From NCBI GenBank assembly GCA_001723645.1, contig MDLC01000015.1:1-57238 (forward strand): DNA of 57,238 nucleotides, written 5' to 3'. The notes under the pieces are model-generated. The model was not told the DNA's origin, did not search any database, and saw only the letters and a list, made by a program, of their open reading frames with translations. The translations under genes and the position numbers were made by a program. Below are positions 41,581-57,238 of the stretch, piece by piece. Every line of letters begins with the position of its first letter. The first letter of the stretch is position 1. Source of the stretch: Candidatus Endobugula sertula (GTDB lineage Bacteria; Pseudomonadota; Gammaproteobacteria; Pseudomonadales; Cellvibrionaceae).

Positions 41581-42474
41581 CTAAATTGATAGGCGATACC
41601 ATTGGGTATTTTTAATAGCCTTTAGATATCTCCTAGCTTTTTTGTGTTGTTCTAAAAACCTAGGACTTTGACTGGTTACTTCAAATCCAAATTGCTTTGG
41701 TAACTTTGTGTACATAGATTTGGGCAGCAATCCGTAGATTTTCTTAATTTTTCGCCCTGTGTCAAAAGTATGATAATAGATGGTCGAAATACCCAGCTTG
41801 TTGCGGATAAATTGAATAGCCGCTAGTAGTGAGAGTTCCGCCCATAATCTCTTATAAGGCTCTAATATGACTTCAGCATAGTGTTTAAATTCATTATACT
41901 CACAGTCAATACCATGGATAATATCGCCGGGTTTTACTGTGTTTTTCCCAGCATAGCACCTTGTAACACGCTGCATATCCCAGGTAACTCTACGGATCCA
42001 ATCATTTTGTACCTCTTCAATTAATGCTTCTCCTGTCGTAGGATCAAAATCTATTCTTACCCAAGATAATGTTTTGCGGTTATTTTGCCTAATAGGATGC
42101 CCTCTATATTCAAATGGGCCATAGCTATCATAAGGTTTTAGTAAACTATGGTAGTGTTGGTTATGTTCATTGCCAAAATTGATTTGTAAAACCAGATTTT
42201 GCTGATTTCTAGGTGTTTGATCATAACCTCTTTCGCTGTCACCCCACCGATCAAGTGTTAATGTAAAAGTTAATACATCATTGGGCCAGTAAGATTTAAG
42301 ATTATCTATTGGTAAATAACCATTGCCGCATCGTTTGATAATGTTTTTAACAATCGGTTTTGCGGCAAATAACTCTAAATAATAGCGATCCTTAAAATAA
42401 TGAAAGCCCCTTCTTTCATTACCTAAGCAATACAGTACATCCTCTAAATATTTACTCGTTAAAATCTCTACCAT
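41581..42474 (-). CDS. Uncharacterised protein, third gene of the rtcB-prfH operon (paralog B)
   Basis: 297 aa. The start overlaps the prfH stop by 23 nt. Shares long identical blocks with 39441..40397 but lacks about 25 aa near the N-terminus. Confidence 0.75.
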
Positions 42475-43135
42475 AAAAAGTACGTATAGGTTTACCCCTT
42501 TGCACTTCGTAGTGCTGTGACCATCGTGAACGTTCGAGTGATTTATTTTCTAAATCGTTTTGATTTGCCAGCAATAGTTGCAAACGCTCTAATGCGATTT
42601 GCTTATTTCTATGCTGGGAACGGTCTGATTCAACACGCACTTTTAAACCAGTTGTGCGATGAGTGATACGAACCGCACTATTGGTCTTATTGACATGTTG
42701 ACCACCTGGCCCTTTTGACCGCATAGTCTCCATATCGACTTCCTTCACTAATTCGTTGAACGTCTTCATACTATTACTAGGCATTGATAATGTCGCAATA
42801 CCCACGAACCAGTTGATGCGTTTATGCTTAGGTCGATAAGGGCTTTCACCTTGCCATTTAATAGTTCCTTGCCATTTATGAGCAAACCCATCAACCCCTT
42901 TGCCTTCTAAGCGGATCAATATCGACAAAAATGCATCAGGCTCAATCAATGTCTGATTTCGCAATAACTTATCAAATGCTAAGCTCTCAACGATTTCAGC
43001 AGACAGATTTTCTCTGTATGCTTCATCCAATAGAACTCGACTGAGCTGAGCAATAACCCAGCCGCATTCTTTAGGGCCTTGACCAGCCGTCAGTTGTAGC
43101 CATACAACTGACGATTTTTTATGCTTTGTTTCCAT
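42452..43135 (-). CDS. prfH: Peptide chain release factor H (PrfH)
   Basis: 227 aa. The RF-like GGQ domain reads [20 protein letters not shown] without a codon-recognition domain of RF1/2 size. Lies 2 nt downstream of rtcB, as in known rtcB2-prfH pairs. Confidence 0.88.
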
Positions 43136-43137
43136 AT

Positions 43138-44373
43138 TTATGTTCTCCGTGTTTTATAGGTGAGTAATGGTTTAAAGGTTGCAACGATATCAACCATACC
43201 GGCTTCCGCTAAGTCGCTCACCACCTGACTAATATTTTTGTAGGCTTGTGGGGCCTCTTCATAAAGTAGATCTCTTTGCTTACAAATAACACGGCTACCT
43301 AGTGAAGTTTTCTCTAAGTCTTTTACCTTAAAACGCTTTTCTAAGCGGCCTCGAGCATCACTGCGTTTCCATTTTCGGCCTGCACCATGTGCTAGAGAAA
43401 AACCTCCAAGAGCCAATGCACTTAGCTCATTAACTCTAGGTTTAACAAGATAACTTAAACTACCTCGAGATCCAGGTATCATTACTAAGCCCTTATTCGT
43501 TGGGCTTGCACCTTTACGGTGTATCCAATAACGTCTTTCTGAATCGATGTCTGACTTTGCGGCTGATTTTGCAGAAAGCCCCATTAGCTCAGTCTCAACA
43601 CTTGATAAAGCTTCAACCATATTGTGGGTGACATCGAACAAATAGCGTTGCTTTGTCTTTAACTGCTGACAAAAACGTTCTGCAATAAGTTCTCGATTTG
43701 CTTCAGCCCAACGGATAGCGTAATTGTGACGTTTTTGATACTGTTCATACTGATATTCATCTTGTATGGTTTCTAATGATTTTGAACCTAGGTTATCAAC
43801 ATGATCGCGAAGTATTTTTTGCCCTAAACCTCTAGAGCCGCTATGTACGAGTAAAAACACATGCTTTTTATCAATACCTAATCCATCAAATACATCACTA
43901 TCAATAATCTCATGAATCTGTTGCAATTCAGCAAAGTGATTATCGCCACCTATTGTTCCTAACTTGTGATGCTCTGTTAATGAAAAATCACCTTCAATTA
44001 TTAGACTGCGATCGCCCAACCATTCTTCCCTATTGCCATTCCATAGTTCATCAAGCCCAACAAGTTGTTTTTCCCATTTGTCTAATTTGACCTTTCTGGT
44101 CGGAATATCTAATTGCCATAAACCCATGCCACAACCAATATCACTACCCACCATATGGGGGTAGATACAGTTTTCCGTTACAAAAGCGGCGCCAATGGGT
44201 TGCCCTTTTCCTGGGTGTAGATCTGGCATACCAATACCGATACGCATACCCGGTAATTCCATTGTTTTTTTCAGCTGCGTAATGGCAGCGTCTTCTAACC
44301 AATTTTTGTCAGAGCTAATAATGCTCGTTCGACGATCCTCAGCTGTTTCGATATTTTTAAATAAAGTACTCAT
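43138..44373 (-). CDS. rtcB: RNA 3'-phosphate/5'-OH ligase RtcB (PrfH-associated type)
   Basis: [35 protein letters not shown] and HGAGR motifs. 411 aa. Confidence 0.93.
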
Positions 44374-48984: not shown

Positions 48985-49536
48985 TTAGCCACTCTTCCAT
49001 TTTCGTTGACTAGAAAATTGTTTAGTCAGATAGTCCATTTGATCGGCAATAATATGCCGATTAGTTAAATACAAATATTCAAAAGGATTCGGCGTAAACG
49101 GAACCGCTAATAAAAGCATATTTGCTTGTTCCGGTGTACGATTGCCTTTTGCATGATTGCAGCGCTTGCAGGCGGCCACGACATTTGTCCAACTATCGGC
49201 TCCACCTTGAGCACGCGGTACCACATGGTCACGGGTTAGTTCCTGTGCAAAAAATATTTGGCCGCAATATAAGCACACATAATTATCTCGACGAAATAAC
49301 ATAGCATTGCTAAATGAACGGACCTTCATACTTTTTCCGTGACCTTTAGTCGCAATCACTGGAGAAATATCAAGCATAGAACGTTCGCCATCGCGGTTGT
49401 AACCGCCCCGCATTAAGGCACCTTGTTCACCCATTTCCCACAGCACAAGTTTTTTGCTGTAAAGGGTTGTAGCAGCCTCCACTAATAGCCAATGCATCGG
49501 CATACCAGAGGGATTTAGGCGTAGTACTTTTTTCAT
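48985..49536 (-). CDS. HNH endonuclease
   Basis: CLYCG...TRDHVVPRAQGG..SW.NVVAACKRCNHAKGNRTP is a classic HNH-Cys4 motif. 183 aa. Confidence 0.88.
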   Translation of the reverse strand: MKKVLRLNPSGMPMHWLLVEAATTLYSKKLVLWEMGEQGALMRGGYNRDGERSMLDISPVIATKGHGKSMKVRSFSNAMLFRRDNYVCLYCGQIFFAQELTRDHVVPRAQGGADSWTNVVAACKRCNHAKGNRTPEQANMLLLAVPFTPNPFEYLYLTNRHIIADQMDYLTKQFSSQRKWKSG

Positions 49537-49578
49537 TACCTTGCGCCAAAAAATAAATCCATATGTGAATACACCAGC

Positions 49579-49875
49579 CTAATAGTATTTAATAAAGTTC
49601 ATACCATCAGCCGAGCGATAACCATTTGTTTCTAACAAATGGATCATCGCTTGTCGTTTTTGTAATTGCCTTTCTGTAACAACTACATAAAGCGGCATCA
49701 ATTGTTGATGGAGTGCCCATGTCAACAATTGGTGCCCATTTTCGCGACCAACTAAATAGTGATCCACATATAGCTGGGTTACACTATTTTTAAGCAATTG
49801 CTTTTTTGCTTTTCTTGCATCGTCACAGAAAACATCTGCGAAACGGTTTTGATTTTTGCTAACAGATAAACGCAT
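49579..49875 (-). CDS. Hypothetical protein inside the tRNA array
   Basis: 98-aa ORF, 33 nt downstream of tRNA-His. No family recognised. Confidence 0.45.
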   Translation of the reverse strand: MRLSVSKNQNRFADVFCDDARKAKKQLLKNSVTQLYVDHYLVGRENGHQLLTWALHQQLMPLYVVVTERQLQKRQAMIHLLETNGYRSADGMNFIKYY

Positions 49876-49908
49876 AATCCCTCCTGTGAGCTAGTGAGAA
49901 TATTTAGG

Positions 49909-49980
49909 GGTGACCGATGGGACTCGAACCCATATATACTTGAGCCACATTCAAGCGCATTACCGATCTGCCACGGCCAC
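49909..49980 (-). tRNA. tRNA-His (GTG), no encoded CCA (CCT) and no G-1
   Basis: Hand fold: GTGGCCG TG GCAG ATCGGTA ATGC G CTTGA ATGTGGC TCAAG TATAT ATGGG TTCGAGT CCCAT CGGTCAC C. Followed by CCT, and position -1 is T. Confidence 0.75.
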
Positions 49981-50011
49981 ACCTAAATATTCTGGGTAAT
50001 AAGAAATAATT

Positions 50012-50086
50012 TGGTCCGCCCGGTAGGATTTGAACCCACACCTGTCGGCTTAAAAGGCCGATGCGCTACCATTACGCCACGAACGG
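50012..50086 (-). tRNA. tRNA-Lys (TTT), CCA encoded
   Basis: Hand fold: CCGTTCG TG GCGT AATGGTA GCGC A TCGGC CTTTTAA GCCGA CAGGT GTGGG TTCAAAT CCTAC CGGGCGG A CCA. Confidence 0.85.
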
Positions 50087-50091
50087 AAAAT

Positions 50092-50170
50092 TGGCACCTG
50101 ACACAGGACTCGAACCTGCATCTCCCCGCTTCGTAGGCGGGTGCTCTAAATCCAATTGAGCTAATCAGGC
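50092..50170 (-). tRNA. tRNA-Arg (ACG), CCA encoded
   Basis: Hand fold: GCCTGAT TA GCTC AATTGGATTTA GAGC A CCCGC CTACGAA GCGGG GAGAT GCAGG TTCGAGT CCTGT GTCAGGT G CCA. Confidence 0.85.
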
Positions 50171-50176
50171 AAAATT

Positions 50177-50250
50177 TGGAGCCCAATACAGGACTCGAAC
50201 CTGTCTCTACTGCTTACAAGGCAGTTGCACAGCCGCTATGCCAATCGGGC
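50177..50250 (-). tRNA. tRNA-Thr (TGT), CCA encoded
   Basis: Hand fold: GCCCGAT TG GCAT AGCGGCT GTGC A ACTGC CTTGTAA GCAGT AGAG ACAGG TTCGAGT CCTGT ATTGGGC T CCA. Confidence 0.85.
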
Positions 50251-50290
50251 AAGTTAAGAAATTTTGTGAAATAAAAGACTGGAATCCTTT

Positions 50291-51487
50291 CTAGCCTTTT
50301 ACGTTGACGATTTGACGAAGCGTATGAACAACGTCAACAAGATCAGTTTGGTTATCCATAACATCATCAATTGGCTTATACGCCATGGGAATCTCATCGA
50401 TTACACCTTTGTCTTTACGGCATTCAATCCCCTCTGTTGCAGATACAAGATCACTTACAGAATAGGTTTTTGCAGCCGCAGTTCGACTTAGGCGACGTCC
50501 AGCGCCGTGAGAGCAAGAACAGAACGATTCTGATTCACCTTTACCACGAACAATAAAACTTTTATCGCCCATAGACCCAGGAATAATACCCAAATCATCT
50601 TTTCTTGCGCGGATAGCGCCTTTACGTGTAACCCATACGTTTTTACCAAAATGGTTTTCCTTTTCCACATAGTTATGATGACAATTGATGGCTTCTTGAG
50701 TGACCGCAAACGCTGGAAGATGTTTACGTAGCTCCATCATCACTGCATTCATCATATGTGTACGATTCAATGCAGCATAATCTTGCCCCCAAGATACTGC
50801 TTCGATGTAATCATCGTAATATTCTGATCCTTCAGATAGATAAGCCAAATCTTTATCGGGCAAATGGATCATCCATTTTTCCATTTCACGTTTCGCGATC
50901 TCGATAAAATGCATTCCAATTTTATTACCGATACCACGGCTTCCTGAATGCAGCATAATCCATACGTCTTGATTTTCATCCAAACACAACTCGATAAAGT
51001 GATTCCCTGAACCTAGCGTACCTAACTGCTTTGCAAAGGCATCATACTTAATACGTTTACTTATTTGAGGATGCTTCTCGAAGATAGTACTTAAACGCAT
51101 TGAAATATCATGGCCACCTGCAATTTTAGGGTCACGATGTTTTCCGCCTGCCCCCAAAGGCACAACAGATTCAATACGACTGCGAATAGCTTTCAAATTA
51201 TCAGGCAGATCTTTTGCCTTTAGCGATAGACGCACGGCATTCATACCACAACCAATATCCACGCCTACTGCAGCAGGGATAATCGCTTTATCGGTCGCGA
51301 TTACTGAACCCACAGTCGCTCCTTTACCCAAATGAACATCTGGCATTGCTGCTACATGTTTATAGACAAAGGGTAAATTCGCTACTCGGCTTAATTGTGC
51401 CTGTGTGTTGTAATCAATATCATCTGTCCAGATTTTTACAGGCACACGCTGATCTTTATGCGTTGCCAATACTTTTTTAATGGTCAT
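50291..51487 (-). CDS. rtcB: RNA ligase RtcB embedded in the tRNA array
   Basis: MPDVHLGKG, GVDIGCGM, GSGNHFIELC, HSGSRGIGN, HNY and HGAGR motifs. 398 aa. Lies 30 nt downstream of an oversized tRNA-like gene and 40 nt upstream of tRNA-Thr. Confidence 0.95.
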   Translation of the reverse strand: MTIKKVLATHKDQRVPVKIWTDDIDYNTQAQLSRVANLPFVYKHVAAMPDVHLGKGATVGSVIATDKAIIPAAVGVDIGCGMNAVRLSLKAKDLPDNLKAIRSRIESVVPLGAGGKHRDPKIAGGHDISMRLSTIFEKHPQISKRIKYDAFAKQLGTLGSGNHFIELCLDENQDVWIMLHSGSRGIGNKIGMHFIEIAKREMEKWMIHLPDKDLAYLSEGSEYYDDYIEAVSWGQDYAALNRTHMMNAVMMELRKHLPAFAVTQEAINCHHNYVEKENHFGKNVWVTRKGAIRARKDDLGIIPGSMGDKSFIVRGKGESESFCSCSHGAGRRLSRTAAAKTYSVSDLVSATEGIECRKDKGVIDEIPMAYKPIDDVMDNQTDLVDVVHTLRQIVNVKG

Positions 51488-51517
51488 AATTGCCTCCTTT
51501 AGTTATTTTATAATGAC

Positions 51518-51658
51518 TGGTTGGAGGTATAGGAATAACCTAAGCGCGTCCTGCGCTTAGCCTTTCAGATGCAAAGCAGTTCAAAATGCTCCCGGCATTT
51601 TGTCGAACCCATCTCGCCGGGGCAAAAACCCGGTGCTCAGCCACTAAGCCAACCTCCA
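51518..51658 (-). tRNA. Oversized (141 nt) tRNA-like gene with a 74-nt T-loop. The 7-nt anticodon loop reads TTTTTGC (UUU). CCA encoded.
   Basis: Hand fold: TGGAGGT TG GCT TAGTGGCTG AGC A CCGGG TTTTTGC CCCGG CGAG ATGGG [TTCGA CAAAATGC-CGGGA-GCATTTTG AACTGCTTTGCATCTGAAAGG CTAAGCGC-AGGAC-GCGCTTAG GTTATT] CCTAT ACCTCCA A CCA. Acceptor pairs 7/7 and T-stem 5/5. Confidence 0.6.
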
Positions 51659-51668
51659 GTTAAGTAAT

Positions 51669-51818
51669 TGGAGCGATGTATGGGAATCGAACCCATTTCC
51701 TCTGCTTGGACTGCTTTGCAGGAGCAAAAGCAGGACATCATGTAGTGGTGGTTGCGAAGCAATTGTGTATAGGGATATACACAACAACGCAGGTACCTCA
51801 CCATTCGGTTAACATCGC
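51669..51818 (-). tRNA. Oversized (150 nt) tRNA-like gene with an ~80-90 nt insertion in the anticodon arm. Anticodon undetermined. CCA encoded.
   Basis: 5' part: GCGATGT TA ACC GAATGGTGA GGT A CCTGC. 3' part: GCAGA GGAA ATGGG TTCGATT CCCAT ACATCGC T CCA. Acceptor pairs 7/7. The insert holds the hairpins TTGTGTATA-TCCC-TATACACAA and CTGCTTTTGC-TCCT-GCAAAGCAG. Confidence 0.55.
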
Positions 51819-51824
51819 ATAAAT

Positions 51825-51902
51825 TGGTCTGGGTGGTAGGGTTTGAACCTACGACCTTTGGGTTCCAAACCCAACACGCTAACCAAACTGCGCTACACCC
51901 AG
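51825..51902 (-). tRNA. tRNA-Pro (TGG), CCA encoded
   Basis: Hand fold: CTGGGTG TA GCGC AGTTTGGTTA GCGT G TTGGG TTTGGAA CCCAA AGGTC GTAGG TTCAAAC CCTAC CACCCAG A CCA. Confidence 0.9.
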
Positions 51903-51910
51903 AATAAATT

Positions 51911-52052
51911 TGGCGGTTCATACCACTTCCCATAAATAGAGAGGGAACCGGTGATCTCTCGGCTTATTCACATGAATGTAATGTATGCCGATTTTGCAGG
52001 AGCAAAAATCGGTGACAACCGAGCGCATTAAACCTGACTATGCTAATGAACC
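51911..52052 (-). tRNA. Oversized (142 nt) tRNA-Asp(GTC)-like gene with a 49-nt insertion after the anticodon loop and an expanded T-loop. CCA encoded.
   Basis: Hand fold: GGTTCAT TA GCAT AGTCAGGTTTA ATGC G CTCGG TTGTCAC [CGATTTTTGC-TCCT-GCAAAATCGG CATACATTACATTCATGTGAATAAG] CCGAG AGATC ACCGG [TTCCC TCTCTATTTAT GGGAA] GTGGT ATGAACC G CCA. Acceptor pairs 7/7. Confidence 0.6.
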
Positions 52053-52057
52053 TTAAT

Positions 52058-52133
52058 TGGTGGAGACCGTGGGAATCGAACCCACCACACAGTGCTTGCA
52101 AAGCATCGTCGCCCCCTTGATACATGGGCCCCC
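52058..52133 (-). tRNA. tRNA-Ala (TGC) with G3:U70, a poorly paired D-arm, CCA encoded
   Basis: Hand fold: GGGGGCC CA TGTATCAAGGGGGCGAC GATGC TTTGCAA GCACT GTGTG GTGGG TTCGATT CCCAC GGTCTCC A CCA. The G3-T70 wobble is present. No convincing D-stem. Confidence 0.7.
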
Positions 52134-52138
52134 AATTT

Positions 52139-52293
52139 TGGAGTGCGAGGCTGGGTGAAAGAAGTGTTGTTAGCAAAGCACTGCTTTGTACTTCTTGAAC
52201 GCCCAAAACTTATAATTTTTGGCCGGCCCGCTTGCGGCAAACCAGCGTATACGGAGGTTGCAGCTCCGCGCATCGTCTCTCTGCCACTCGCAC
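52139..52293 (-). tRNA. Oversized (155 nt) tRNA-Cys(GCA)-like gene with an 87-nt T-loop. U73, CCA encoded.
   Basis: Hand fold: GTGCGAG TG GCAG AGAGACG ATGC G CGGAG CTGCAAC CTCCG TATAC GCTGG [87 nt, including AAGAAGT..ACTTCTT and AAAGC-AGT-GCTTT hairpins] CCAGC CTCGCAC T CCA. Acceptor, anticodon and T stems all pair perfectly. Confidence 0.6.
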
Positions 52294-52310
52294 AAAATAG
52301 TTATTCAGAT

Positions 52311-52384
52311 TGGCAACAGCGTCAGGATTCGAACCTGGAATACCGGAGTCAAAGTCCAGTGTGTTACCGTTACACCACGCTGCT
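52311..52384 (-). tRNA. tRNA-Gln (TTG), G73, CCA encoded
   Basis: Hand fold: AGCAGCG TG GTGT AACGGTA ACAC A CTGGA CTTTGAC TCCGG TATT CCAGG TTCGAAT CCTGA CGCTGTT G CCA. One T-stem mismatch. Confidence 0.8.
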
Positions 52385-52392
52385 ATATTTTT

Positions 52393-52481
52393 TGGTCGTG
52401 AGGAGCGGGTTTGAACTCTCGCAGCACTCTTGTTACTGTGCGGATTAGCAATCCGCTGCCTTACCACTCGGCCACATTTCC
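52393..52481 (-). tRNA. tRNA-Ser(GCT)-like, probably defective (acceptor and T stems do not pair)
   Basis: Type II D-arm GCCGAGTGGTAAGGC, anticodon arm GCGGA TTGCTAA TCCGC, and a long variable arm. The 5' strand GGAAATG pairs at only 3 of 7 positions with CCTCACG, and the T-stem GAGAG/CCGCT is poor. Confidence 0.5.
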
Positions 52482-52487
52482 AATAAT

Positions 52488-52629
52488 TGGTTGCGGTGGC
52501 TGGAATAACCAAAGTACTTTCTGTACTTTGCTCTGCGAGTGCTTCGCTGCTCAAAATGCTCCAGGCATTTTGTCGAACCAACAAGTTCGGGCATATGAAA
52601 CCCGCGAGTAGCCATAGCTCAACACCGCT
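52488..52629 (-). tRNA. Oversized (142 nt) initiator-like tRNA (CAT) with the same 74-nt T-loop architecture as 51518..51658. CCA encoded.
   Basis: Hand fold: AGCGGTG TT GAGC TATGGCT A CTC G CGGGT TTCATAT GCCCG AACTT GTTGG [TTCGA CAAAATGC-CTGGA-GCATTTTG AGCAGCGAAGCACTCGCAGAG CAAAGTAC-AGAAA-GTACTTTG GTTATT] CCAGC CACCGCA A CCA. There is a 1:72 A-A mismatch, and the 3' end CCGCAACCA resembles remembered E. coli tRNA-fMet. Confidence 0.6.
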
Positions 52630-52640
52630 TCAAATAGTAG

Positions 52641-52715
52641 TAGGCCAAGGCGGATTCGAACCGCTCCTTATCCCGCTTATGAGGCGGGTGCATTCACCGA
52701 TTATGCTATTGGCCT
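52641..52715 (-). tRNA. tRNA with CAT anticodon (Met/Ile2 type), no CCA encoded
   Basis: Hand fold: AGGCCAA TA GCAT AATCGGTGA ATGC A CCCGC CTCATAA GCGGG ATAAGG AGCGG TTCGAAT CCGCC TTGGCCT A. Followed by CTA. Confidence 0.75.
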
Positions 52716-52725
52716 AATTTAAAAT

Positions 52726-52809
52726 TGGTGTAGGCAGATGGAGTTGAACCACCAAAGCTTTCGCGACCGGGTTACAACCGGCTAGAGTCACCACGTCTCT
52801 TCTGTGTAC
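52726..52809 (-). tRNA. tRNA-Tyr (GTA), type II, with two central acceptor mismatches. CCA encoded.
   Basis: Hand fold: GTACACA GA AGAG ACGTGGTGA CTCT A GCCGG TTGTAAC CCGGT CGCGAAAGCTTT GGTGG TTCAACT CCATC TGCCTAC A CCA. An alternative 5' strand GCAGGTA (to 52813) pairs 6/7 but leaves a 6-nt connector. Confidence 0.65.
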
Positions 52810-52818
52810 CTGCATAAT

Positions 52819-52895
52819 TGGCTCCGGCAGTTGGGATCGAACCAACGAACTCCTGATTAACAGTCAGGCGCATTACCACTCTGCTTCACACCGGA
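52819..52895 (-). tRNA. tRNA-Asn (GTT), CCA encoded
   Basis: Hand fold: TCCGGTG TGAAGCAGAGTGGTAATGC G CCTGA CTGTTAA TCAGG AGTTC GTTGG TTCGATC CCAAC TGCCGGA G CCA. The D-stem is shifted (GCA/TGC). Confidence 0.8.
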
Positions 52896-52902
52896 ATAAA
52901 AT

Positions 52903-52979
52903 TGGTACAGTGAGCTGGACTCGAACCAGCACTCTCCTGATCTTCAATCAAGCGCTCTACCAATTGGAGCTATCACTGC
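52903..52979 (-). tRNA. tRNA-Phe (GAA), CCA encoded
   Basis: Hand fold: GCAGTGA TA GCTC CAATTGGTA GAGC G CTTGA TTGAAGA TCAGG AGAGT GCTGG TTCGAGT CCAGC TCACTGT A CCA. Confidence 0.9.
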
Positions 52980-52987
52980 CGTTTTAT

Positions 52988-53173
52988 TTGGCACGCGGTG
53001 AAAGAAAAGTATCAAACCTCATCGAGGAGTGGAACGACAGCAATAAAATTGATCCTGAACGGCTAGAAGACCAGCTCACACCAGAGCGTTATAGGGCGCT
53101 ATTTGATACCCTCGTAGATTGGAATGACTATCTTGACAACCATGCACCGGATATCAAGGAGTTGTTGCTATGA
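52988..53173 (+). CDS. Small hypothetical protein upstream of mobC (start uncertain, TTG)
   Basis: The part of track ORF 52910..53173 that lies outside tRNA-Phe. Its stop overlaps the mobC-like start (ATGA). Confidence 0.3.
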   Translation: MARGERKVSNLIEEWNDSNKIDPERLEDQLTPERYRALFDTLVDWNDYLDNHAPDIKELLL

Positions 53174-53598
53174 ACAATTCTGCGAACCTCAAACAAGCGT
53201 TTGAAACCTCTAGCGCTCAAAATACCATCAAACCTAAAAAGCAGTATGCACGAACATTTTCTATGCGTCTTACGGATGGTGAACGTGATTTCTTAGACCA
53301 GCATAGCGGCTCTTTGTCATGGTCTGGCTATATCCGCAAGCGTGTCTTTGGTGAAAAAGCCGAAAAACGTCGCCCTGTAAAACGAGCTGTGCCAGATACG
53401 GCGCTACTAGCTCAAGTTCTCGCAGAGCTAGGCGCTTCCCGTTTATCTGCCAATATCAACCAACTGGCAAAACACGCCAATATGGGAACGCTGGACGTTT
53501 CGCCTGAAACTGAGCGCGAGATTGAAAGCGCCTGCCGTGAAATCCATACCCTGCGTATGCTGTTGATTGCTGCCTTGGGTGTTCAGCCAGAGGATTAG
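53170..53598 (+). CDS. MobC-like relaxosome accessory protein
   Basis: RHH-like N-terminal part (FSMRLTDGERDFL) and the ELGASRLSANINQLAKHANMG motif typical of MobC-family mobilisation proteins. Immediately upstream of the relaxase. Confidence 0.8.
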   Translation: MNNSANLKQAFETSSAQNTIKPKKQYARTFSMRLTDGERDFLDQHSGSLSWSGYIRKRVFGEKAEKRRPVKRAVPDTALLAQVLAELGASRLSANINQLAKHANMGTLDVSPETEREIESACREIHTLRMLLIAALGVQPED

Positions 53599-53600
53599 AG

Positions 53601-54734
53601 ATGATATTGCACGGCAATCAACGCGGCGGCGCTAAAGATATGGCGCTTCATCTTATGAAAGATGAAAACGAACATATTGAGGTGTACGAGATCAGAGGCT
53701 TTGCTTCTGAAAACCTCATAGGGGCTTTTAACGAAGCCTATGCCATTAGCCGCGCCACACGTTGTAAGCAATTCCTATACTCTCTAAGCTTAAACCCGCC
53801 ACCGGATGAGCAGGTATCTACTGAAAGCTTTAAAAAAGCCATTAATCAGGCTGAACAACGGCTAGGGCTGGATAATCAGCCCCGCGTTATTGTTTTCCAT
53901 GAAAAGCAGGGGCGTAGGCATTGCCATGTTGTCTGGTCACGAATTGATAGCTCTGAATTAAAGGCCATACGGCTTCCTTTTACCAAGTTGAAATTACGGG
54001 AGTTATCCCGCGAATTATTCCTAGAGCATGGCTGGGCTATGCCCGAAGGTTTGCGGGATTCCCACAACCGTGACCCGCGTAATTTTACCTTGGCAGAATG
54101 GCAGCAAGCCAAACGCACAGGCAAGAACCCCAAGCAGGTTAAGGCCGTATTCCAAGAATGCTGGAATATTAGCGATACACAAAGCGCTTTTGCCAATGCC
54201 CTAAAAGAGCATGGTTATATCTTGGCGCGTGGTGATCGGCGCGGCTTTGTTGCGGTGGATTTTAAAGGTGAAGCTTTCGCCGTGTCTAAATGGGTTGGCA
54301 TTAAAGCAAAAGACGTTAAAGCCAAACTCAACGAAGCGGATAAGTTGCTTCCATTTGCAGACGCTAAAGCACACATGGCAAATGCTATGGCGGCAACATT
54401 GCAAAAGGCTCAAGAGCAGCAAAATACCGCTATTCGTGAGCGCCAAAATCAGCTTGAGGCAAGACTTGAAGCCATGGCCATGCAACATAAGCAAGAACGC
54501 CAAAATCTGGAACAAACACAAGATATACGCCGTATTGAAGAAACCAAAACCCGCCAAGCCAGATACAGCAAAGGCTTACGAGGCCTATGGCAACGCCTGG
54601 ATAAGTTCAGGGAACAGGGGCAAAAGCATATCACTCAAGACATACAACAATACCGCGAAATCCAACAACATAAGCGGGATACGTTCAGCATGACAGACCC
54701 ACAAAAACATAGGGGTAGAGGGCTTGAGCGTTAA
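53601..54734 (+). CDS. Relaxase / mobilisation nuclease (MobA/VirD2-type)
   Basis: N-terminal relaxase domain with HCHVVWSRI (His-triad region), then a long Q/E-rich coiled-coil tail. 377 aa. Confidence 0.88.
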   Translation: MILHGNQRGGAKDMALHLMKDENEHIEVYEIRGFASENLIGAFNEAYAISRATRCKQFLYSLSLNPPPDEQVSTESFKKAINQAEQRLGLDNQPRVIVFHEKQGRRHCHVVWSRIDSSELKAIRLPFTKLKLRELSRELFLEHGWAMPEGLRDSHNRDPRNFTLAEWQQAKRTGKNPKQVKAVFQECWNISDTQSAFANALKEHGYILARGDRRGFVAVDFKGEAFAVSKWVGIKAKDVKAKLNEADKLLPFADAKAHMANAMAATLQKAQEQQNTAIRERQNQLEARLEAMAMQHKQERQNLEQTQDIRRIEETKTRQARYSKGLRGLWQRLDKFREQGQKHITQDIQQYREIQQHKRDTFSMTDPQKHRGRGLER

Positions 54735-54822
54735 TTAATTGGTTAAATTTGACTCAAACAGCAAAAAAGTTGTATGCTTAAACATATATGTGTTTATACG
54801 CTTATTTATAGAGGTAACTATC

Positions 54823-55059
54823 ATGACACGTTGGAGTCTTGTTGTTAATAACGAAACCGATCAAAGCTTACGTGCTTTTCTGGGTCAGAAAGGTGCGAAA
54901 AAAGGTGATTTATCCAAATTCGTAGAAGAAGCCGTACTGGATAAATTACTGGCTGAAACAGCAGAAATGATTAAAGAGCGTAATGCTGCCGATGATCAAA
55001 TGAATATTATGAGTACAGTAAATGAAGCATTAGAGGCTGTACGTGCGCATAGTTCTTGA
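54823..55059 (+). CDS. Ribbon-helix-helix antitoxin
   Basis: An RBS gaggt precedes ATG 54823. 78 aa with an MTRWSLVVNNETDQSLRAFL beta-strand start. Its end overlaps the PIN gene. Confidence 0.7.
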   Translation: MTRWSLVVNNETDQSLRAFLGQKGAKKGDLSKFVEEAVLDKLLAETAEMIKERNAADDQMNIMSTVNEALEAVRAHSS

Positions 55060-55459
55060 TACAGGCATTTTAGTTAGCGCATTAATCACCAAAGATACGC
55101 CGCCTGATTGGTTGTACCAATCATGGTGTAAACAAGCCTTTACGCTTGTCACCTCTGAAGAGCAACTGGAAGAAATAAAGCGTGTACTGTCTTATAAAAA
55201 GCTCGAACGTTTTATCAATCAGTCCGAAGCACAAATTCTGCTAGAAGCTCTCCACCGAAAAGCAGATATTGCAACAGACCTACCTTTTGTTGAACTATCA
55301 CCTGACCCTGATGATAACCGTATTATTGCCACGGCGCTGGCTGGGCAAGCGGATTATCTGGTATCAGGCGATAAGGCGGATTTATTGAGCCTTGGCATGG
55401 CTCATGATATTCCCATTCTTACTGCTCGGCAGATGGCAGAACGCTTGAAACTGGGTTAA
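55043..55459 (+). CDS. PIN-domain toxin
   Basis: IVLDTGILVSALI (the first acidic residue), D...D in DPDDNRIIATA and SGD. 138 aa, GTG start. Confidence 0.8.
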   Translation: MRIVLDTGILVSALITKDTPPDWLYQSWCKQAFTLVTSEEQLEEIKRVLSYKKLERFINQSEAQILLEALHRKADIATDLPFVELSPDPDDNRIIATALAGQADYLVSGDKADLLSLGMAHDIPILTARQMAERLKLG

Positions 55460-55475
55460 ATAACAAAGCCATTTA

Positions 55476-56027
55476 TCAATTGAAAAAGTCTCGAATGTCC
55501 ATAATTGCACCTTTCCCGTTAAGGTGCTGGCGCATTTGATTTAGCTTTTCATAAATTGTGACAGTATATATTCCGTTAAAGCTGCCATATATCTTATGGT
55601 CTTCCCCCGTTTCACAATATTTAGGGTTATCCAATGTGTGAAAAGTTCTACAGTGAAATGGCCTTACCTCATATATCGTACATTCGCCTTCATCACCAAG
55701 AAAAGGACAAGGGCTAGTATGTCCGGTAGAAGCAATTAATTGTCTGGGCTTTCTCTTTCGACGGGTCTCTTCCTCTATAAGTTTTGCTTCTAATTCAGTG
55801 ATCGTGACATCAATTTTGCAGCAGTGAGAACATCCTTTCGAGCAAACAGAGAAGGTTTTAACAAAGTCACCATAATCTTCTAAATATTTGTAAATATCTT
55901 TTAGCTTCAAAATAGCTCTTTTATTTTTAGATTGAAGTGTGCTCAGTAACTTCTTGCACTTAATAGCTAATTCATTAGGGATAGCAGGTAATACCGTTTC
56001 TTCACTTTTATCTTTAAACTTTATCAT
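55476..56027 (-). CDS. YkgJ-family cysteine-cluster (Zn/Fe-chelating) protein
   Basis: CSKGCSHCCK (CxxCxxCC) plus a second C-rich block CPFLGDEGECTIYEVRPFHCR. Confidence 0.8.
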   Translation of the reverse strand: MIKFKDKSEETVLPAIPNELAIKCKKLLSTLQSKNKRAILKLKDIYKYLEDYGDFVKTFSVCSKGCSHCCKIDVTITELEAKLIEEETRRKRKPRQLIASTGHTSPCPFLGDEGECTIYEVRPFHCRTFHTLDNPKYCETGEDHKIYGSFNGIYTVTIYEKLNQMRQHLNGKGAIMDIRDFFN

Positions 56028-56147
56028 TATACGACCTCTGATAACCTCTACGATTAAATCATGATGATATTGATGCCAAAAAAGTGGCTAGTTACACCTT
56101 AGCTGAGAGTAACAAAATAAGTGAACAAAGACGACGATAAGAGGAAC

Positions 56148-56336
56148 CTAAAATGAGGTATTAGGTACTTTTTTAATATAATCACGAACGGCGATGAGTA
56201 TAGGGCTTAGATCTTCGTCTTTGCTATGAATCATCTTCAAAACCGTATCCTCGCTATCGGCTAGATCACAAAGCATAGAGCCATACATTTTCATGTAGCT
56301 GCGGTATTTGCGTTTAAGCTGTGCTGGTGTTGTCAT
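56148..56336 (-). CDS. Small hypothetical protein downstream of the resolvase
   Basis: ORF from an internal ATG (MTTPAQLKRKY...). Overlaps the resolvase 3' end. Confidence 0.35.
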   Translation of the reverse strand: MTTPAQLKRKYRSYMKMYGSMLCDLADSEDTVLKMIHSKDEDLSPILIAVRDYIKKVPNTSF

Positions 56337-56925
56337 TGCTGGAAGTCCTTTTTTTCTGAGGGGTATATTCATTTAAGATGCGGCTGAGAGTGCGGGTAGA
56401 GATGCCAAATTCTTTGGCTATCTCTTTATGAGTGTATTGCTGTTGGGCTTTCATTTTGAGGAGTGCGCGGGTTTTACGCTGTGATAGTTTACGCCGCCGC
56501 CCAAGGTGTTTGCCGTTTTGTCGGGCGATTTCCAACCCTGCTTTGGTTCGCTCTGAAATAATATCGCGCTCAAGCTCTGCAAAGGCATTGCGGATGGTAT
56601 ACATGCACTTACCCATCGGGGTTGTTGTGTCGATAGCTTCCGTCAAACATTTAAACTCAAGGCCGCGTTGCTGAAATAAATCTAATACGTCTAGTGCGTT
56701 TCTAACCGAACGGAAGGCACGGTCAAATTTCCAAATCACCAGCACATCACCATACTGCATAGACGCAATAGCGCTGTCGAAGCCTGGGCGTGATTTAGCG
56801 ATAGCGGACACGCCCAAGTCTTCGAAGATATTATTCTGCTCACACCCTGCTAATATCAGGGCTTTGCGTTGTAGGTCTAAATTCTGTTCACTGGTGCTAA
56901 CCCGCGCATAACCAATCAAGGCCAT
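56314..56925 (-). CDS. Serine recombinase (resolvase/invertase family)
   Basis: MALIGYARVSTSEQNLDLQ (catalytic Ser), VWKFDRAFRS, and a C-terminal HTH HKEIAKEFGISTRTLSRIL. Confidence 0.92.
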   Translation of the reverse strand: MALIGYARVSTSEQNLDLQRKALILAGCEQNNIFEDLGVSAIAKSRPGFDSAIASMQYGDVLVIWKFDRAFRSVRNALDVLDLFQQRGLEFKCLTEAIDTTTPMGKCMYTIRNAFAELERDIISERTKAGLEIARQNGKHLGRRRKLSQRKTRALLKMKAQQQYTHKEIAKEFGISTRTLSRILNEYTPQKKRTSSNDNTSTA

Positions 56926-57238
56926 AAATCCTCCCATAAAATAATGTCTTCCCTATAACGGTAGACAAAACCGAACGTTTCTGTCTTATAGCCATAAGAT
57001 CACCCAGTCAATAAAAAAGAGAGAAAAAGGCGTTAAAAACGGGCGTAAACAGCCATTTTTTAAGCACAAAATAATCTTATGGAATTATGACGAAATCCTT
57101 CGATTGCGGCGGCTATTAATCTATTGATATTGCTTACTTTTTCTTGTTCTGTATGGGCAGATGCATATTCCACTCCAAGATGAACACCTTCTCCAATTGA
57201 AAATGATCACCCCCTGCGATTAAACGTGATCAGTCTCT

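What the first reader, a model, noticed from the sequence alone, without database searches (positions are those of the whole stretch)
51911..52052. tRNA-Asp(GTC)-like gene with a 49-nt insertion placed directly after an intact anticodon loop, plus an expanded T-loop
**Insertion beside the anticodon loop.**
- The anticodon stem strands CTCGG and CCGAG are 56 nt apart.
- The first 7 nt after CTCGG are TTGTCAC, a complete Asp-type anticodon loop.
- They are followed by a 49-nt insert starting with the hairpin CCGATTTTTGC-TCCT-GCAAAATCGG.
- The hairpin's 5' arm (CCGA) duplicates the first 4 nt of the 3' stem strand CCGAG. It could therefore pair with the 5' stem strand in its place, giving mutually exclusive folds.

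**T-loop.** The T-loop is also enlarged to 21 nt and contains a TTCCC/GGGAA stem.

**Assessment.** The position is close to, but not at, the canonical 37/38 intron site. The size is far below group I introns.
Basis: partly seen in the sequence, partly recalled or inferred. Interest (0 to 1): 0.75.

Follow-up and report, generated by a model that had tools for sequence, protein, structure and literature searches.

The report
tRNA-Asp gene split by 49-nt repeat
A spare tRNA-Asp gene in a horizontally acquired tRNA and RNA-repair island is interrupted by one copy of a 49-base, two-hairpin repeat that also occurs at many non-tRNA sites in other bacteria, so it is most likely a disabled gene and not a new kind of tRNA intron.

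Summary
On the minus strand, 52052..51911 is a tRNA-Asp(GTC)-like gene. A 49-nt insert lies between the anticodon loop and the 3' anticodon-stem strand, and the T loop is 21 nt long. ARAGORN calls a tRNA only after both the 49 nt and 15 nt of the T loop are removed.

The gene is not unique. It lies in an accessory tRNA array next to RtcB, an HNH endonuclease, a CCA-adding enzyme and RtcB2-PrfH. In that array, 6 of 13 genes upstream of RtcB are broken: five by small hairpin elements and one by a deletion that fuses two genes. Related Cellvibrionaceae arrays carry intact orthologues of four of the five element-interrupted genes.

The 49-nt insert belongs to a repeat family of fixed 49-nt length.
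- A profile built only from metagenomic copies hits it at E=2e-9.
- I found 93 near-consensus metagenomic copies. None is in a tRNA and about 86 lie outside long ORFs.
- Some copies are tandem, some are nested in other repeats, and one sits in a group II intron.
- Related arrays hold five more tRNA-borne copies, four of them in D loops and each with an empty orthologous site.

No bulge-helix-bulge motif, ribozyme or Rfam family matches. Best reading: a DNA-level REP/MITE-like insertion into a redundant, decaying tRNA gene. RtcB-dependent splicing is not excluded but has no support.

The parts
51911..52052 (-). tRNA-Asp(GTC)-like gene 'C' (the finding), 142 nt with encoded CCA
   Evidence: Sequence. 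ARAGORN calls Asp(GTC) only after in-silico removal of both inserts. Coordinates.
52012..52052 (-). 5' part: acceptor 5' strand, D arm (GCAT/ATGC), anticodon stem 5' strand CTCGG and loop TTGTCAC
51963..52011 (-). 49-nt insert, a diverged copy of the 49-nt two-hairpin repeat family ('type 2'). The junction is ambiguous by about -2/+1 nt.
   Evidence: A profile of 34 distinct metagenomic units, with no window sequence in it, hits 52012..51971 at E=2e-9 and 32.9 bits, profile positions 2-43 of 49. The length is the same 49 nt as all other copies.
51988..52012 (-). Repeat hairpin 1: CCGATTTTTGC-TCCT-GCAAAATCGG, with a bulged T in the 5' arm. It is the reverse complement of the 'P1' hairpin of the type-1 element.
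   Evidence: The family covaries at the stem foot: CAGA/TCTG, CAGG/CCTG, TCGA/TCGA, CCGG/CCGG.
51966..51979 (-). Repeat hairpin 2 (ACATTCA-TGAAT palindrome). It occupies the place of the consensus CGCCATCCATGGCG.
   Evidence: Alignment; fold.
51911..51962 (-). 3' part: anticodon stem 3' strand CCGAG, variable region AGAT, damaged T arm, acceptor 3' strand, GCCA
51930..51944 (-). Extra 15 nt in the T loop (CCTCTCTATTTATGG). It matches no repeat family. The T stem has lost the G53-C61 pair.
   Evidence: removal needed for tRNA detection. (no similar sequence in any locus). Comparison with L067 tRNA-Asp ...CACCGGTTCAAATCCGGT.
52488..52629 (-). Gene 'A': tRNA(CAT) with a 67-nt type-1 element in the T loop after TTCGA (insert 52506-52572)
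   Evidence: Intact orthologue at L081 9125-9199. Removal restores tRNA-Met(CAT).
52393..52481 (-). Chimeric tRNA-Ser(GCT) 5' part fused to the 3' end of a tRNA-Met. This is a deletion product whose acceptor strands do not pair.
   Evidence: Rfam gives only 30.5 bits. Comparison with L081 Ser 9204-9294 and Met 9550-9625.
52139..52293 (-). Gene 'B': tRNA-Cys(GCA) with an insert of about 81-83 nt ('type 3') in the T loop after TTTG
   Evidence: Intact orthologue at L083 9574-9648. The same element type sits in L083 tRNA-Glu. Removal restores Cys.
51669..51818 (-). Gene 'D': tRNA-Gly(TCC) with a complete 76-77-nt type-1 element in REVERSE orientation in the anticodon loop (insert about 51711-51787)
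   Evidence: Intact orthologues at L081 9814-9887 and L083 9812-9885. The element aligns to type 1 on the + strand. Removal of 76 nt restores Gly(TCC).
51518..51658 (-). Gene 'E': tRNA-Lys(TTT)-like with a 67-nt type-1 element in the T loop. Its anticodon loop is TTTTTGC, with G37.
   Evidence: Intact orthologue at L081 9896-9969. Removal restores Lys(TTT). The same interrupted 3' end occurs in L282, whose RtcB is 98% identical.
50291..51487 (-). RtcB RNA ligase immediately downstream of the array
   Evidence: Pfam PF01139, 433 bits. Homologues are 87-98% identical in uncultured Cellvibrionaceae.
48985..49536 (-). HNH endonuclease inside the tRNA island
   Evidence: Pfam HNH_5 and HNH. Conserved next to RtcB and tRNAs in L081, L082, L083, L086 and L278.
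42452..44373 (-). RtcB2-PrfH pair at the far end of the island
   Evidence: NCBIfam TIGR03072 release_prfH, 209 bits against a cut-off of 166.65. PRK09588 and TIGR03073 release_rtcB also match.
53170..56937 (.). MobC/relaxase, RHH-PIN toxin-antitoxin pair and a resolvase flanking the array (mobile-island context)
   Evidence: Pfam.

Best explanation
The locus is a supernumerary tRNA-Asp(GTC) gene. It belongs to a horizontally acquired tRNA array, of the 'L-array' type, that is linked to RtcB, an HNH endonuclease, a CCA-adding enzyme and RtcB2-PrfH.

The gene has been interrupted at the DNA level by one copy of a 49-nt, two-hairpin repeat with no terminal inverted repeats (REP/PATE/MITE-like). 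A second, unrelated 15-nt expansion and a mutation damage the T arm. It is most likely an inactivated gene in a decaying, redundant array, not an intron-containing functional gene.

Shown:
- The insert is a member of the repeat family.
- The family has a fixed 49-nt length.
- It occurs at many non-tRNA, mostly intergenic sites, in tandem, and nested in other repeats.
- Orthologous sites in related arrays are either filled or empty.
- Copies with a clear empty site insert right after a short GNWG-like motif, with no target duplication and in one orientation.
- Four other genes of the same array are hit by other small hairpin elements, one of them in reverse orientation.

Inferred:
- Mobility is by a single-strand-DNA, hairpin-recognising mechanism of the HUH/Y1 type (IS200/IS605 or RAYT-like). 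No transposase was found.
- The gene no longer gives a working tRNA-Asp.
- RtcB is linked to the array for tRNA repair, not for splicing.
For: 1. Family membership. A profile built from 34 distinct metagenomic units hits 52012..51971 at E=2e-9. The insert has the family's exact 49-nt length.

2. The family is not tRNA-specific.
- 93 near-consensus copies were found, 88 in L093-L172 and 5 in L173-L177.
- None lies in a tRNA (run on the 88 copies of L093-L172).
- About 86 of 93 lie outside ORFs of 150 aa or more.
- Perfect 49-nt tandem arrays exist.
- Some copies are nested in a roughly 100-nt repeat that also exists empty.
- One copy lies in a group II intron just upstream of the long ORF (the position of domain IV).

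3. Filled and empty orthologous sites in related arrays.
- L278 Met and Thr, L083 Leu, L082 Phe and the L083 leader are filled. Orthologues in L081, L082, L083, L278 and the window are empty.
- Removing exactly 49 nt restores callable tRNAs.

4. The array is decaying. 6 of its 13 genes upstream of RtcB are disrupted. Intact orthologues exist elsewhere for A, B, D and E.
- Gene D holds a full type-1 element in reverse orientation after TTGGA, the reverse complement of its anticodon loop.
- The orthologous interrupted Arg-ACG alleles each carry different structure-breaking changes.

5. Strand asymmetry. The family's hairpins pair better on the strand ANTISENSE to tRNA C: 27 G:T against 10 A:C. 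This argues against selection for structure in the tRNA transcript.

6. Gene C has a second lesion. The 15-nt T-loop expansion must also be removed for detection, and the G53-C61 pair is lost.

7. RtcB-linked arrays exist without these elements (L003, L067). In cyanobacteria rtcB is co-regulated with L-arrays and was proposed to act in tRNA repair (PMC8421152).
Against: - No transposase or RAYT was found near any copy. The mechanism is therefore an analogy.
- Gene C's own 5' flank (GTCA|C) does not match the GNWG motif seen at the other copies.
- C is a diverged copy, and its second hairpin differs from the consensus.
- No orthologue of gene C was found, so an empty site for this particular insertion could not be shown.
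- Apart from the T arm, C's stems are intact (acceptor 7/7, D 4/4, anticodon 5/5). This fits a recent insertion but also continued selection.
- All six tRNA-borne copies and the group II intron copy point the same way as the host RNA. An RNA-level process would also predict this.
- The adjacent RtcB is the right ligase for 2',3'-cyclic-phosphate/5'-OH exon ends.
Confidence: 0.72

Rival explanations
1. The 49-nt insert, and the other small inserts of the array, are true intervening sequences. The precursor is cut at both junctions by an unidentified endoribonuclease that leaves 2',3'-cyclic phosphate and 5'-OH ends. The adjacent RtcB joins the exons to give a working tRNA-Asp.
For: - RtcB lies directly downstream of the array, and a second RtcB lies in the island.
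- The inserts sit in loops (anticodon, D, T), where the rest of the tRNA can still fold.
- The junction of C is compatible with 37/38.
- In-silico removal restores tRNAs.
- All six tRNA-borne 49-nt copies are co-oriented with the tRNA.
Against: - There is no bulge-helix-bulge motif. The predicted fold has a continuous 7-bp helix and a multiloop.
- No EndA-like protein was found among the island ORFs scanned, and no ribozyme or Rfam family matches.
- The same unit sits at many intergenic non-tRNA sites and in tandem.
- A sister element is inserted backwards in gene D.
- C would need two separate excisions and would still lack the 53-61 pair.
- The hairpins are better on the antisense strand.
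- RtcB-linked arrays occur without such inserts.
Confidence: 0.1
2. The small elements are functional RNA or protein-binding modules, not junk. On one strand their hairpin loops carry (A)NGGA motifs resembling CsrA/RsmA binding sites. Array transcripts, or antisense transcripts for the 49-nt unit, could then titrate an RNA-binding regulator or act as processing or stability signals. The interrupted 'tRNAs' would be scaffolds.
For: - Type-1 P4 loops read ACAAGGATGT, ACATGGATGT or CACGGATG. P1 loops read GC-AGGA-GC or GC-CNGGA-GC.
- The 49-nt unit's opposite strand has GCCAUGGAUGGC and UUUUGC-AGGA-GCAAAA.
- Type 1 has four hairpins, and 19 of 23 pairs covary.
- G:U excess on the GGA strand is 16 against 6 for type 1 and 27 against 10 for the unit.
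- The unit's core is very well conserved across unrelated genomic contexts.
Against: - The resemblance to the CsrA consensus is recalled from memory and was not tested.
- No CsrB/Rsm family hit was found in Rfam.
- In gene C the GGA strand is antisense to the tRNA.
- Dozens of copies in one metagenome, with nesting and filled/empty polymorphism, are typical of selfish repeats.
- Covariation in hairpins is equally expected for hairpins recognised on single-stranded DNA.
Confidence: 0.1
3. The locus is an assembly or chance artefact, i.e. not a real tRNA-derived gene.
For: None beyond the failure of standard tRNA finders.
Against: - It has perfect acceptor, D and anticodon stems, an encoded CCA and in-register array spacing.
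- Independent assemblies of related genomes show the same kinds of interrupted genes.
Confidence: 0.02

Closest known systems
REP elements / REPINs and IS200/IS605-derived palindrome-associated elements (PATEs), mobilised by HUH Y1 transposases (RAYT/TnpA)
   Same: - Very short (tens of nt) and built of imperfect hairpins with a bulged base.
- No terminal inverted repeats and no target-site duplication.
- Insertion in a fixed orientation right after a short specific motif (GNWG-like for the 49-nt unit, TTCGA-like for type 1).
- Mostly intergenic and multi-copy, with nesting and clustering.
   Different: - No Y1 transposase or RAYT gene was found near any copy.
- The unit has two different hairpins and a strictly fixed 49-nt length.
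- It forms head-to-tail tandem arrays.
- It repeatedly lands in loops of structured-RNA genes (tRNA D and anticodon loops, a group II intron).
- The mechanism is inferred, not shown.
MITEs that land in RNA or protein genes (e.g. Rickettsia palindromic elements, Correia elements)
   Same: Small non-autonomous repeats found inside genes as well as between them. Related strains show presence or absence at the same site.
   Different: Classical MITEs have terminal inverted repeats and target-site duplications. The 49-nt unit has neither.
Archaeal/eukaryal protein-spliced tRNA introns (bulge-helix-bulge motif, EndA/TSEN endonuclease, RtcB ligase)
   Same: A short insert at or next to position 37/38. 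Other inserts of the array lie in D and T loops, as do non-canonical archaeal introns. An RtcB ligase is encoded next door.
   Different: - No bulge-helix-bulge motif.
- No splicing endonuclease found in the island.
- The host is a bacterium.
- The insert is a dispersed repeat also found outside tRNAs.
Bacterial group I introns in tRNA anticodon loops (tRNA-Leu UAA, tRNA-fMet, tRNA-Ile, tRNA-Arg)
   Same: A bacterial tRNA gene interrupted in the anticodon loop.
   Different: The insert is 49 nt, against more than 200 nt for group I introns. There is no group I core and no Rfam hit.
[quoted passage not shown] 2021, PMC8421152)
   Same: A supernumerary tRNA array on a mobile island, with neighbouring HNH and RtcB genes. 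Some members are pseudogenes. Spread is by horizontal transfer.
   Different: The described arrays are mainly cyanobacterial. That paper's main text contains none of 'interrupted', 'disrupted' or 'truncated', and its single use of 'insertion' refers to rearrangements among arrays, so it does not describe tRNA genes interrupted by small repeats. Here the host is a gammaproteobacterium (Cellvibrionaceae) and the island also carries RtcB2-PrfH and a CCA-adding enzyme.

Membership tests
tRNA gene (Asp, GTC) | Cloverleaf with a 7-bp acceptor stem, D arm, 5-bp anticodon stem with a 7-nt loop (U33, purine 37), and T arm with G53-C61 and a 7-nt T loop | tested here: not met
   The acceptor, D and anticodon arms and the loop TTGTCAC are intact. 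The anticodon arm is split by 49 nt. The T loop is 21 nt and position 53-61 is G:G. ARAGORN and Rfam do not call the gene as it stands. It is tRNA-derived, not a standard tRNA gene.
49-nt two-hairpin repeat family (defined here) | 49-nt unit: hairpin N4-5-TTTTGC-TCCT-GCAAAA-N4-5 with a bulged T, then CAT(T/A)C, then a second palindromic hairpin | tested here: met
   An independent profile hits at E=2e-9 and 32.9 bits, positions 2-43 of 49. The length is identical. The second hairpin is diverged.
49-nt two-hairpin repeat family (defined here) | Copies at unrelated, non-tRNA loci | tested here: met
   93 copies in L093-L177 with about 16 flank families. None is in a tRNA. Tandem and nested copies exist.
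Mobile DNA insertion (presence/absence polymorphism) | An empty orthologous site exists for this very insertion | tested here: inconclusive
   No orthologue of gene C exists in any fetched locus. Empty sites are shown for five other copies of the same family.
Classical MITE | Terminal inverted repeats and a target-site duplication | tested here: not met
   The unit's ends (GCAG... and ...GGTC/GCTT) are not inverted repeats. No duplication flanks any of the clean filled/empty pairs.
REP/PATE (HUH Y1 transposase-mobilised hairpin elements) | Hairpin-based element inserted 3' of a short specific motif, in a fixed orientation, without duplication | tested here: met
   The 5' flanks are GCAG|, GCTG|, GAAG|, GTAG-like and GCAG| for the unit. 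For type 1 they are TTCGA|, TACGA|, TTTGA| and TTGGA|. Gene C's own flank (GTCA|C) does not fit.
REP/PATE (HUH Y1 transposase-mobilised hairpin elements) | A cognate Y1 transposase or RAYT in the genome | not testable with these tools
   No recurrent transposase-like ORF occurs in 624 kb around the metagenomic copies. Whole source genomes could not be scanned.
Archaeal-type protein-spliced tRNA intron | Bulge-helix-bulge motif (two 3-nt bulges separated by a 4-bp helix) at the exon-intron junctions | tested here: not met
   The predicted structures give a continuous extended anticodon helix and a multiloop. At most 1 nt is unpaired on the 3' side.
Archaeal-type protein-spliced tRNA intron | Splicing endonuclease (EndA/TSEN family) available | tested here: inconclusive
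   None was found among the island ORFs scanned, 20 against Pfam and 10 against NCBIfam. The rest of the genome is unknown.
Archaeal-type protein-spliced tRNA intron | RtcB-type 3'-phosphate/5'-OH ligase available | tested here: met
   RtcB at 50291-51487 and RtcB2 at 43138-44373.
Group I self-splicing tRNA intron / small self-cleaving ribozymes | Match to the conserved catalytic core (Rfam covariance models) | tested here: not met
   There is no intron or ribozyme hit at E<=10 in 48000-53500. The only overlaps are sub-threshold tmRNA-clan matches (RF00023, 52058-52116, which lies on the adjacent tRNA-Ala; RF04321 tmRNA_permuted, 51920-52085, 14.4 bits).
L-array (long horizontally transferred tRNA array) | More than about 10 clustered supernumerary tRNA genes on a mobile element, with HNH and RtcB neighbours | tested here: met
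   12 canonical genes plus at least 6 disrupted ones lie in 48.5-53.0 kb, with HNH, two RtcB genes, a relaxase and a resolvase. The same synteny occurs in L081-L083, L086 and L278. Definition from PMC8421152.

The most novel reading that the evidence does not exclude
The small hairpin inserts in these RtcB-linked arrays, including the 49-nt unit in tRNA-Asp, are tolerated because the cell removes them at the RNA level: endonucleolytic excision followed by RtcB ligation. That would be a protein-dependent tRNA splicing pathway in bacteria, with mobile mini-introns that spread as DNA repeats but are neutralised by splicing, much as IStrons are.
Probability: 0.07. Interest if true: 0.9.

Novelty: new member of a known kind. 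Interest (0 to 1): 0.38.

Why it matters
For annotation, the locus should be labelled as a tRNA-Asp pseudogene or disrupted gene carrying a repeat insertion, not as an intron-containing tRNA.

More broadly, accessory RtcB-linked tRNA arrays in Cellvibrionaceae are heavily colonised by at least three families of miniature hairpin elements. These land with sequence specificity in tRNA loops: type 1 after the T-loop TTCGA, and the 49-nt unit mostly in the D loop.

The 49-nt unit appears to be an undescribed repeat. It has a strictly fixed length and occurs across many environmental proteobacterial contigs. No Rfam family, no literal literature match and no plasmid or phage copy was found.

Such elements explain part of the 'gaps' and pseudogenes in tRNA arrays, and they cause tRNA finders to under-count. 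They also offer a compact system for studying hairpin-guided insertion. If the low-probability splicing reading were true, it would be the first protein-dependent tRNA splicing pathway in bacteria.

Tried and rejected
- **Phage origin.** Rejected. The window is a gammaproteobacterial chromosome (PolA, COX1, Pst transporter, 6S RNA) with an inserted island.
- **Known RNA family, ribozyme or intron.** None found.
- **ARAGORN intron mode on gene C.** It fails unless the T-loop extra is also removed.
- **Orthologue of gene C, to show an empty site.** None in any locus.
- **Family for the 15-nt T-loop extra.** None.
- **The 49-nt unit in plasmids.** No match.
- **The 49-nt unit in viral contigs.** Only chance 16-mer matches. 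The one extended hit, in L203, looks like unrelated sequence.
- **Array region in plasmids.** Nothing relevant.
- **Literal sequence search of the literature.** No paper.
- **Transposase linked to the metagenomic copies.** The only ORFs that recur between loci look like ordinary metabolic, transport or signalling genes on overlapping contigs (judged from their sequences, not searched).
- **Orientation of metagenomic copies relative to neighbouring genes.** No clear bias, and many copies are not independent.
- **GC skew to infer replication direction.** Uninformative, because it follows gene orientation.
- **Promoter scan upstream of the array.** Nothing convincing.
- **The CCGA duplication as a designed switch.** Considered and set aside. 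The hairpin foot varies freely among family copies (CAGA, CAGG, TCGA, CCGG...), so its partial match to the anticodon stem here is most simply coincidence. The alternative fold is nevertheless predicted.
Full report
**1. Observation**

The feature lies on the minus strand. Read 5'->3' from 52052 to 51911 it is:

GGTTCAT-TA-GCAT-AGTCAGGTTTA-ATGC-G-CTCGG-TTGTCAC-[49 nt]-CCGAG-AGAT-C-ACCGG-TTCCCTCTCTATTTATGGGAA-GTGGT-ATGAACC-G-CCA.

- the 56-nt separation of CTCGG and CCGAG, made of the 7-nt loop plus the 49-nt insert;
- the Asp-type loop TTGTCAC;
- the hairpin CCGATTTTTGC-TCCT-GCAAAATCGG;
- the 21-nt T loop with TTCCC/GGGAA.

ARAGORN finds 12 ordinary tRNAs in the window and Rfam finds 11 at gathering score. 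Neither calls this gene. ARAGORN calls tRNA-Asp(GTC) only when the 49 nt and 15 nt of the T loop (CCTCTCTATTTATGG) are both deleted. Even then the T stem is ACCGG/GTGGT, with a G:G mismatch at the normally invariant 53-61 pair.

RNAfold gives an MFE of -44.4 kcal/mol, with z = -3.3 against shuffles. In that structure the insert's CCGA competes for the anticodon-stem strand. A cloverleaf-like centroid lies at -43.0 kcal/mol.

The junction is ambiguous because of repeated bases. Insertion at 36/37, 37/38, 38/39 or 39/40 all fit the sequence.

**2. Context**

The window is a gammaproteobacterial chromosome. It encodes PolA, cytochrome oxidase, a Pst transporter and 6S RNA. It carries an island from about 41.5 to 57 kb containing:
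- PrfH and RtcB2 (TIGR03072 and release_rtcB);
- a CCA-adding enzyme, a metallophosphatase and an SPFH protein;
- an HNH endonuclease and a second RtcB;
- about 18 tRNA or tRNA-like genes;
- MobC/relaxase, an RHH-PIN pair and a resolvase.

The RtcB next to the array is 87-98% identical to proteins of uncultured Cellvibrionaceae and Aurantivibrio.

This is the 'L-array' type of horizontally transferred tRNA array. In cyanobacteria such arrays are linked to and co-regulated with an HNH endonuclease and rtcB, and are induced by translational stress (PMC8421152). That paper's main text contains none of 'interrupted', 'disrupted' or 'truncated', so it does not describe interrupted tRNA genes.

**3. 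The gene is one of several broken genes**

Between the called tRNAs lie four more tRNA-like genes with inserts, and one chimera.

| Gene | Window coordinates | Identity | Disruption |
|---|---|---|---|
| A | 52629..52488 | CAT anticodon | 67-nt insert in the T loop after TTCGA |
| B | 52293..52139 | Cys-GCA | insert of about 81-83 nt in the T loop |
| D | 51818..51669 | Gly-TCC | 76-77-nt insert in the anticodon loop |
| E | 51658..51518 | Lys-TTT | 67-nt insert in the T loop |
| chimera | 52481..52393 | Ser-GCT 5' part | fused to the 3' end of a tRNA-Met |

In-silico removal restores ARAGORN calls for A, B, D and E.

Arrays from relatives were fetched through their RtcB: L081, L082, L083, L086 and L278. 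They carry intact orthologues of A, B, D and E. Conversely, they carry interrupted versions of genes that are intact in the window: Phe, Arg-ACG, His, Tyr, Leu, Glu, Pro, Met and Thr.

The inserts fall into families.

*Type 1* is 67-78 nt long.
- It has four hairpins, and 19 of its 23 pairs covary.
- It always follows TTCGA-like pentamers: the T-loop TTCGA, TTTGA or TTCAA, the Arg anticodon loop TACGA, or the His D-loop TTGA.
- In window gene D it is complete but REVERSED. It sits after TTGGA on the opposite strand, which is the reverse complement of the Gly anticodon loop.

Insertion governed by a DNA motif, whatever the tRNA's orientation, shows mobility at the DNA level. The orthologous interrupted Arg-ACG alleles of L081, L082 and L083 each carry different structure-breaking changes: position 39, C61 to A, and a base lost from the acceptor stem. 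This fits relaxed selection.

**4. What the 49-nt insert is**

Its first hairpin is the exact reverse complement of the type-1 P1 hairpin, including the bulged base. Four similar 49-nt inserts were found in related arrays:
- the L083 tRNA-Leu D loop;
- the L082 tRNA-Phe D loop;
- a non-tRNA site in the L083 array leader, nested in the loop of another hairpin;
- window gene C.

A scan of JGI metagenome contigs used a 25-base consensus pattern taken from the L083 copies. It returned 85 stretches, and I counted 93 copies in them (88 in L093-L172, 5 in L173-L177). More than 50 different contigs came from one metagenome (Ga0180009).

All copies are exactly 49 nt. The consensus is GCAGATTTTTGCTCCTGCAAAATCTGCATTCAyGCCATCCATGGCrmTy. 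The foot of hairpin 1 and the stem of hairpin 2 show clear covariation.

Where the metagenomic copies lie:
- None is in a tRNA.
- About 86 of 93 lie outside ORFs of 150 aa or more.
- They fall into about 16 flank families.
- Some form perfect head-to-tail 49-nt tandem arrays that run into contig ends.
- Many are nested in the loop of a roughly 100-nt repeat that also exists without the unit.
- One lies in a group II intron just upstream of the long ORF, the position of domain IV and its reverse-transcriptase ORF.

A profile built only from the 34 distinct metagenomic units hits the window once with significance. The hit is at 52012..51971, with E=2e-9 and 32.9 bits, covering profile positions 2-43 of 49. 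The finding's insert is therefore a somewhat diverged member of this family.

A closer relative, L278 (RtcB 93% identical), adds two near-consensus copies. Both lie in D loops (tRNA-Met and tRNA-Thr), both have empty orthologous sites elsewhere, and both are restored to callable tRNAs by removing exactly 49 nt.

Where the empty site is known, the unit follows GCAG, GCTG, GAAG or GTAG. There is no target duplication and the orientation is always the same.

No Rfam family, literal literature match, plasmid copy or genuine viral copy was found.

**5. Mechanism**

Shown:
- The insert is a copy of a dispersed repeat that is sometimes tandem.
- Insertion is site- and orientation-specific, without duplication.
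- The array is riddled with such elements and with deletions.

Inferred: the features point to the REP/PATE class, which is moved on single-stranded DNA by HUH Y1 transposases. Those features are tiny size, imperfect hairpins with a bulged base, no inverted termini, insertion right after a tetra- or pentanucleotide, and nesting. No such enzyme was found near any copy. This step is an analogy, which I rate at about 0.3.

Non-Watson-Crick positions in the hairpins are mostly A:C on the strand that is sense in tRNA C. That makes them G:T on the opposite strand (27 against 10). For type 1, the G:U-rich strand is the tRNA sense strand (16 against 6). In gene C, therefore, the better-paired strand is antisense to the tRNA. 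This argues against selection for RNA structure within the tRNA-Asp transcript. The counts are not phylogenetically independent.

**6. Rivals**

*RtcB-dependent splicing.* This is the attractive alternative, because the right ligase is adjacent and the inserts sit in loops. The evidence against it:
- there is no bulge-helix-bulge motif;
- no endonuclease candidate was found among the island ORFs scanned;
- a sister element is inserted backwards;
- the same unit occurs at many intergenic sites;
- gene C would need two excisions and would still lack the 53-61 pair;
- RtcB-linked arrays exist without these elements (L003, L067).

*A functional RNA module.* The loops of type 1, and of the opposite strand of the unit, read (A)NGGA. 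From memory, this resembles CsrA/RsmA sites. The idea is untested, and Rfam shows no Csr or Rsm match.

**7. Verdict**

The anatomical description is right.

The locus is best annotated as a tRNA-Asp(GTC) pseudogene or disrupted gene in an accessory tRNA array. The 49-nt repeat family and the loop-targeting type-1 element appear to be undescribed members of a known kind, miniature hairpin repeats. Interest is moderate to low for the locus itself and somewhat higher for the element families.

Noticed in passing
window 51518-51658, 51669-51818, 52139-52293, 52488-52629 (all minus strand): Four more tRNA genes of the same array are interrupted by small hairpin elements and missed by ARAGORN and Rfam: Lys-TTT, Gly-TCC, Cys-GCA and a CAT-anticodon tRNA. 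Intact orthologues exist in related arrays.
   Followed up: yes
window 51711-51787 (+ strand sense); L081 8752-8827 and 11373-11446; L082 8961-9034, 9215-9287, 11284-11357; L086 9549-9621; L041 3539-3612: 'Type 1' element, 67-78 nt, with four hairpins and 19 of 23 pairs covarying. It always inserts right after TTCGA-like pentamers (T loop, Arg anticodon loop, His D loop). It occurs once in reverse orientation, after the reverse complement of the Gly anticodon loop. Its P1 and P4 loops read AGGA, CNGGA or ANGGA.
   Followed up: partly
window 52393-52481 (minus): Chimeric gene: the 5' two-thirds of tRNA-Ser(GCT) is fused to the 3' end of a tRNA-Met. Relative to L081, the Leu, Leu, Leu and Met genes have apparently been deleted. 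Rfam gives only 30.5 bits.
   Followed up: partly
window about 48490-48545 (minus), just after tRNA-Met 48542-48618: A conserved tRNA-fragment-like piece (T arm plus 3' acceptor-like end with CCA: ...ggtaagacgaaagtctggggttcgaatccccttggtttgttacca). It recurs downstream of the same tRNA in L084, L086 and L087.
   Followed up: no
window 42452-44373 and 44979-46987 (minus): The island encodes RtcB2-PrfH (a putative ribosome/rRNA repair pair), a CCA-adding enzyme with an HD domain, and a metallophosphatase. Together they look like a translation-apparatus repair island attached to the tRNA array.
   Followed up: partly
window 36971-37145 (minus): 6S RNA (Rfam RF00013, 87 bits), just outside the island.
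   Followed up: no
L081 8130-8330; L083 8084-8132: The leader upstream of related arrays holds two tandem copies of a unit-like module in the opposite orientation (CCCTCCATGGATGGAGGG-TACATC-AAAAATGC-AGGA-GCAATTTTTT). In L083 a 49-nt unit is nested in the AGGA loop of one of them.
   Followed up: partly
L103, L120, L121 and many other Ga0180009 contigs (e.g. L120 about 9300-9700): A multi-copy intergenic repeat of about 100 nt. It has a long closing helix (GGTTCGGTGGCTCGATTGACAGG...CCTGTCAAGCGAGTCACCGAACC) and GGA-loop hairpins. It exists empty or filled with the 49-nt unit. It can also hold a second nested element with inverted ends CCAGCACCTAAAT.../...ATTTAGGTGCTGG flanked by a repeated TTCAC. 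No Rfam match.
   Followed up: partly
L161 1-123; L138 9376-9511; L121; L134: Perfect or near-perfect head-to-tail tandem arrays of the 49-nt unit (97-100% identity). They are cut off by contig ends, so their true length is unknown.
   Followed up: partly
L147 2360-2408 (minus): A 49-nt unit lies inside a group II intron, between the D1-D4 and D5 Rfam matches. It is just upstream of the ribosome-binding site of the intron's long ORF and has the same orientation as the intron.
   Followed up: partly
L083 about 8440-8540 (tRNA-Glu) and window 52155-52237: 'Type 3' element of about 83 nt (CCGCAAGCGG...TTTCAC), inserted in T loops after TTYG in two different tRNA genes of two genomes.
   Followed up: no
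L081 about 9700-9740; L082 about 9770-9850; L083 about 9690-9770: In three relatives the tRNA-Pro(TGG) orthologue has its anticodon region replaced by another small insert (aatcaaaatacatccaagtattttgcccttcgggttcttc). In L082 and L083 a reversed P1-like hairpin is added.
   Followed up: no
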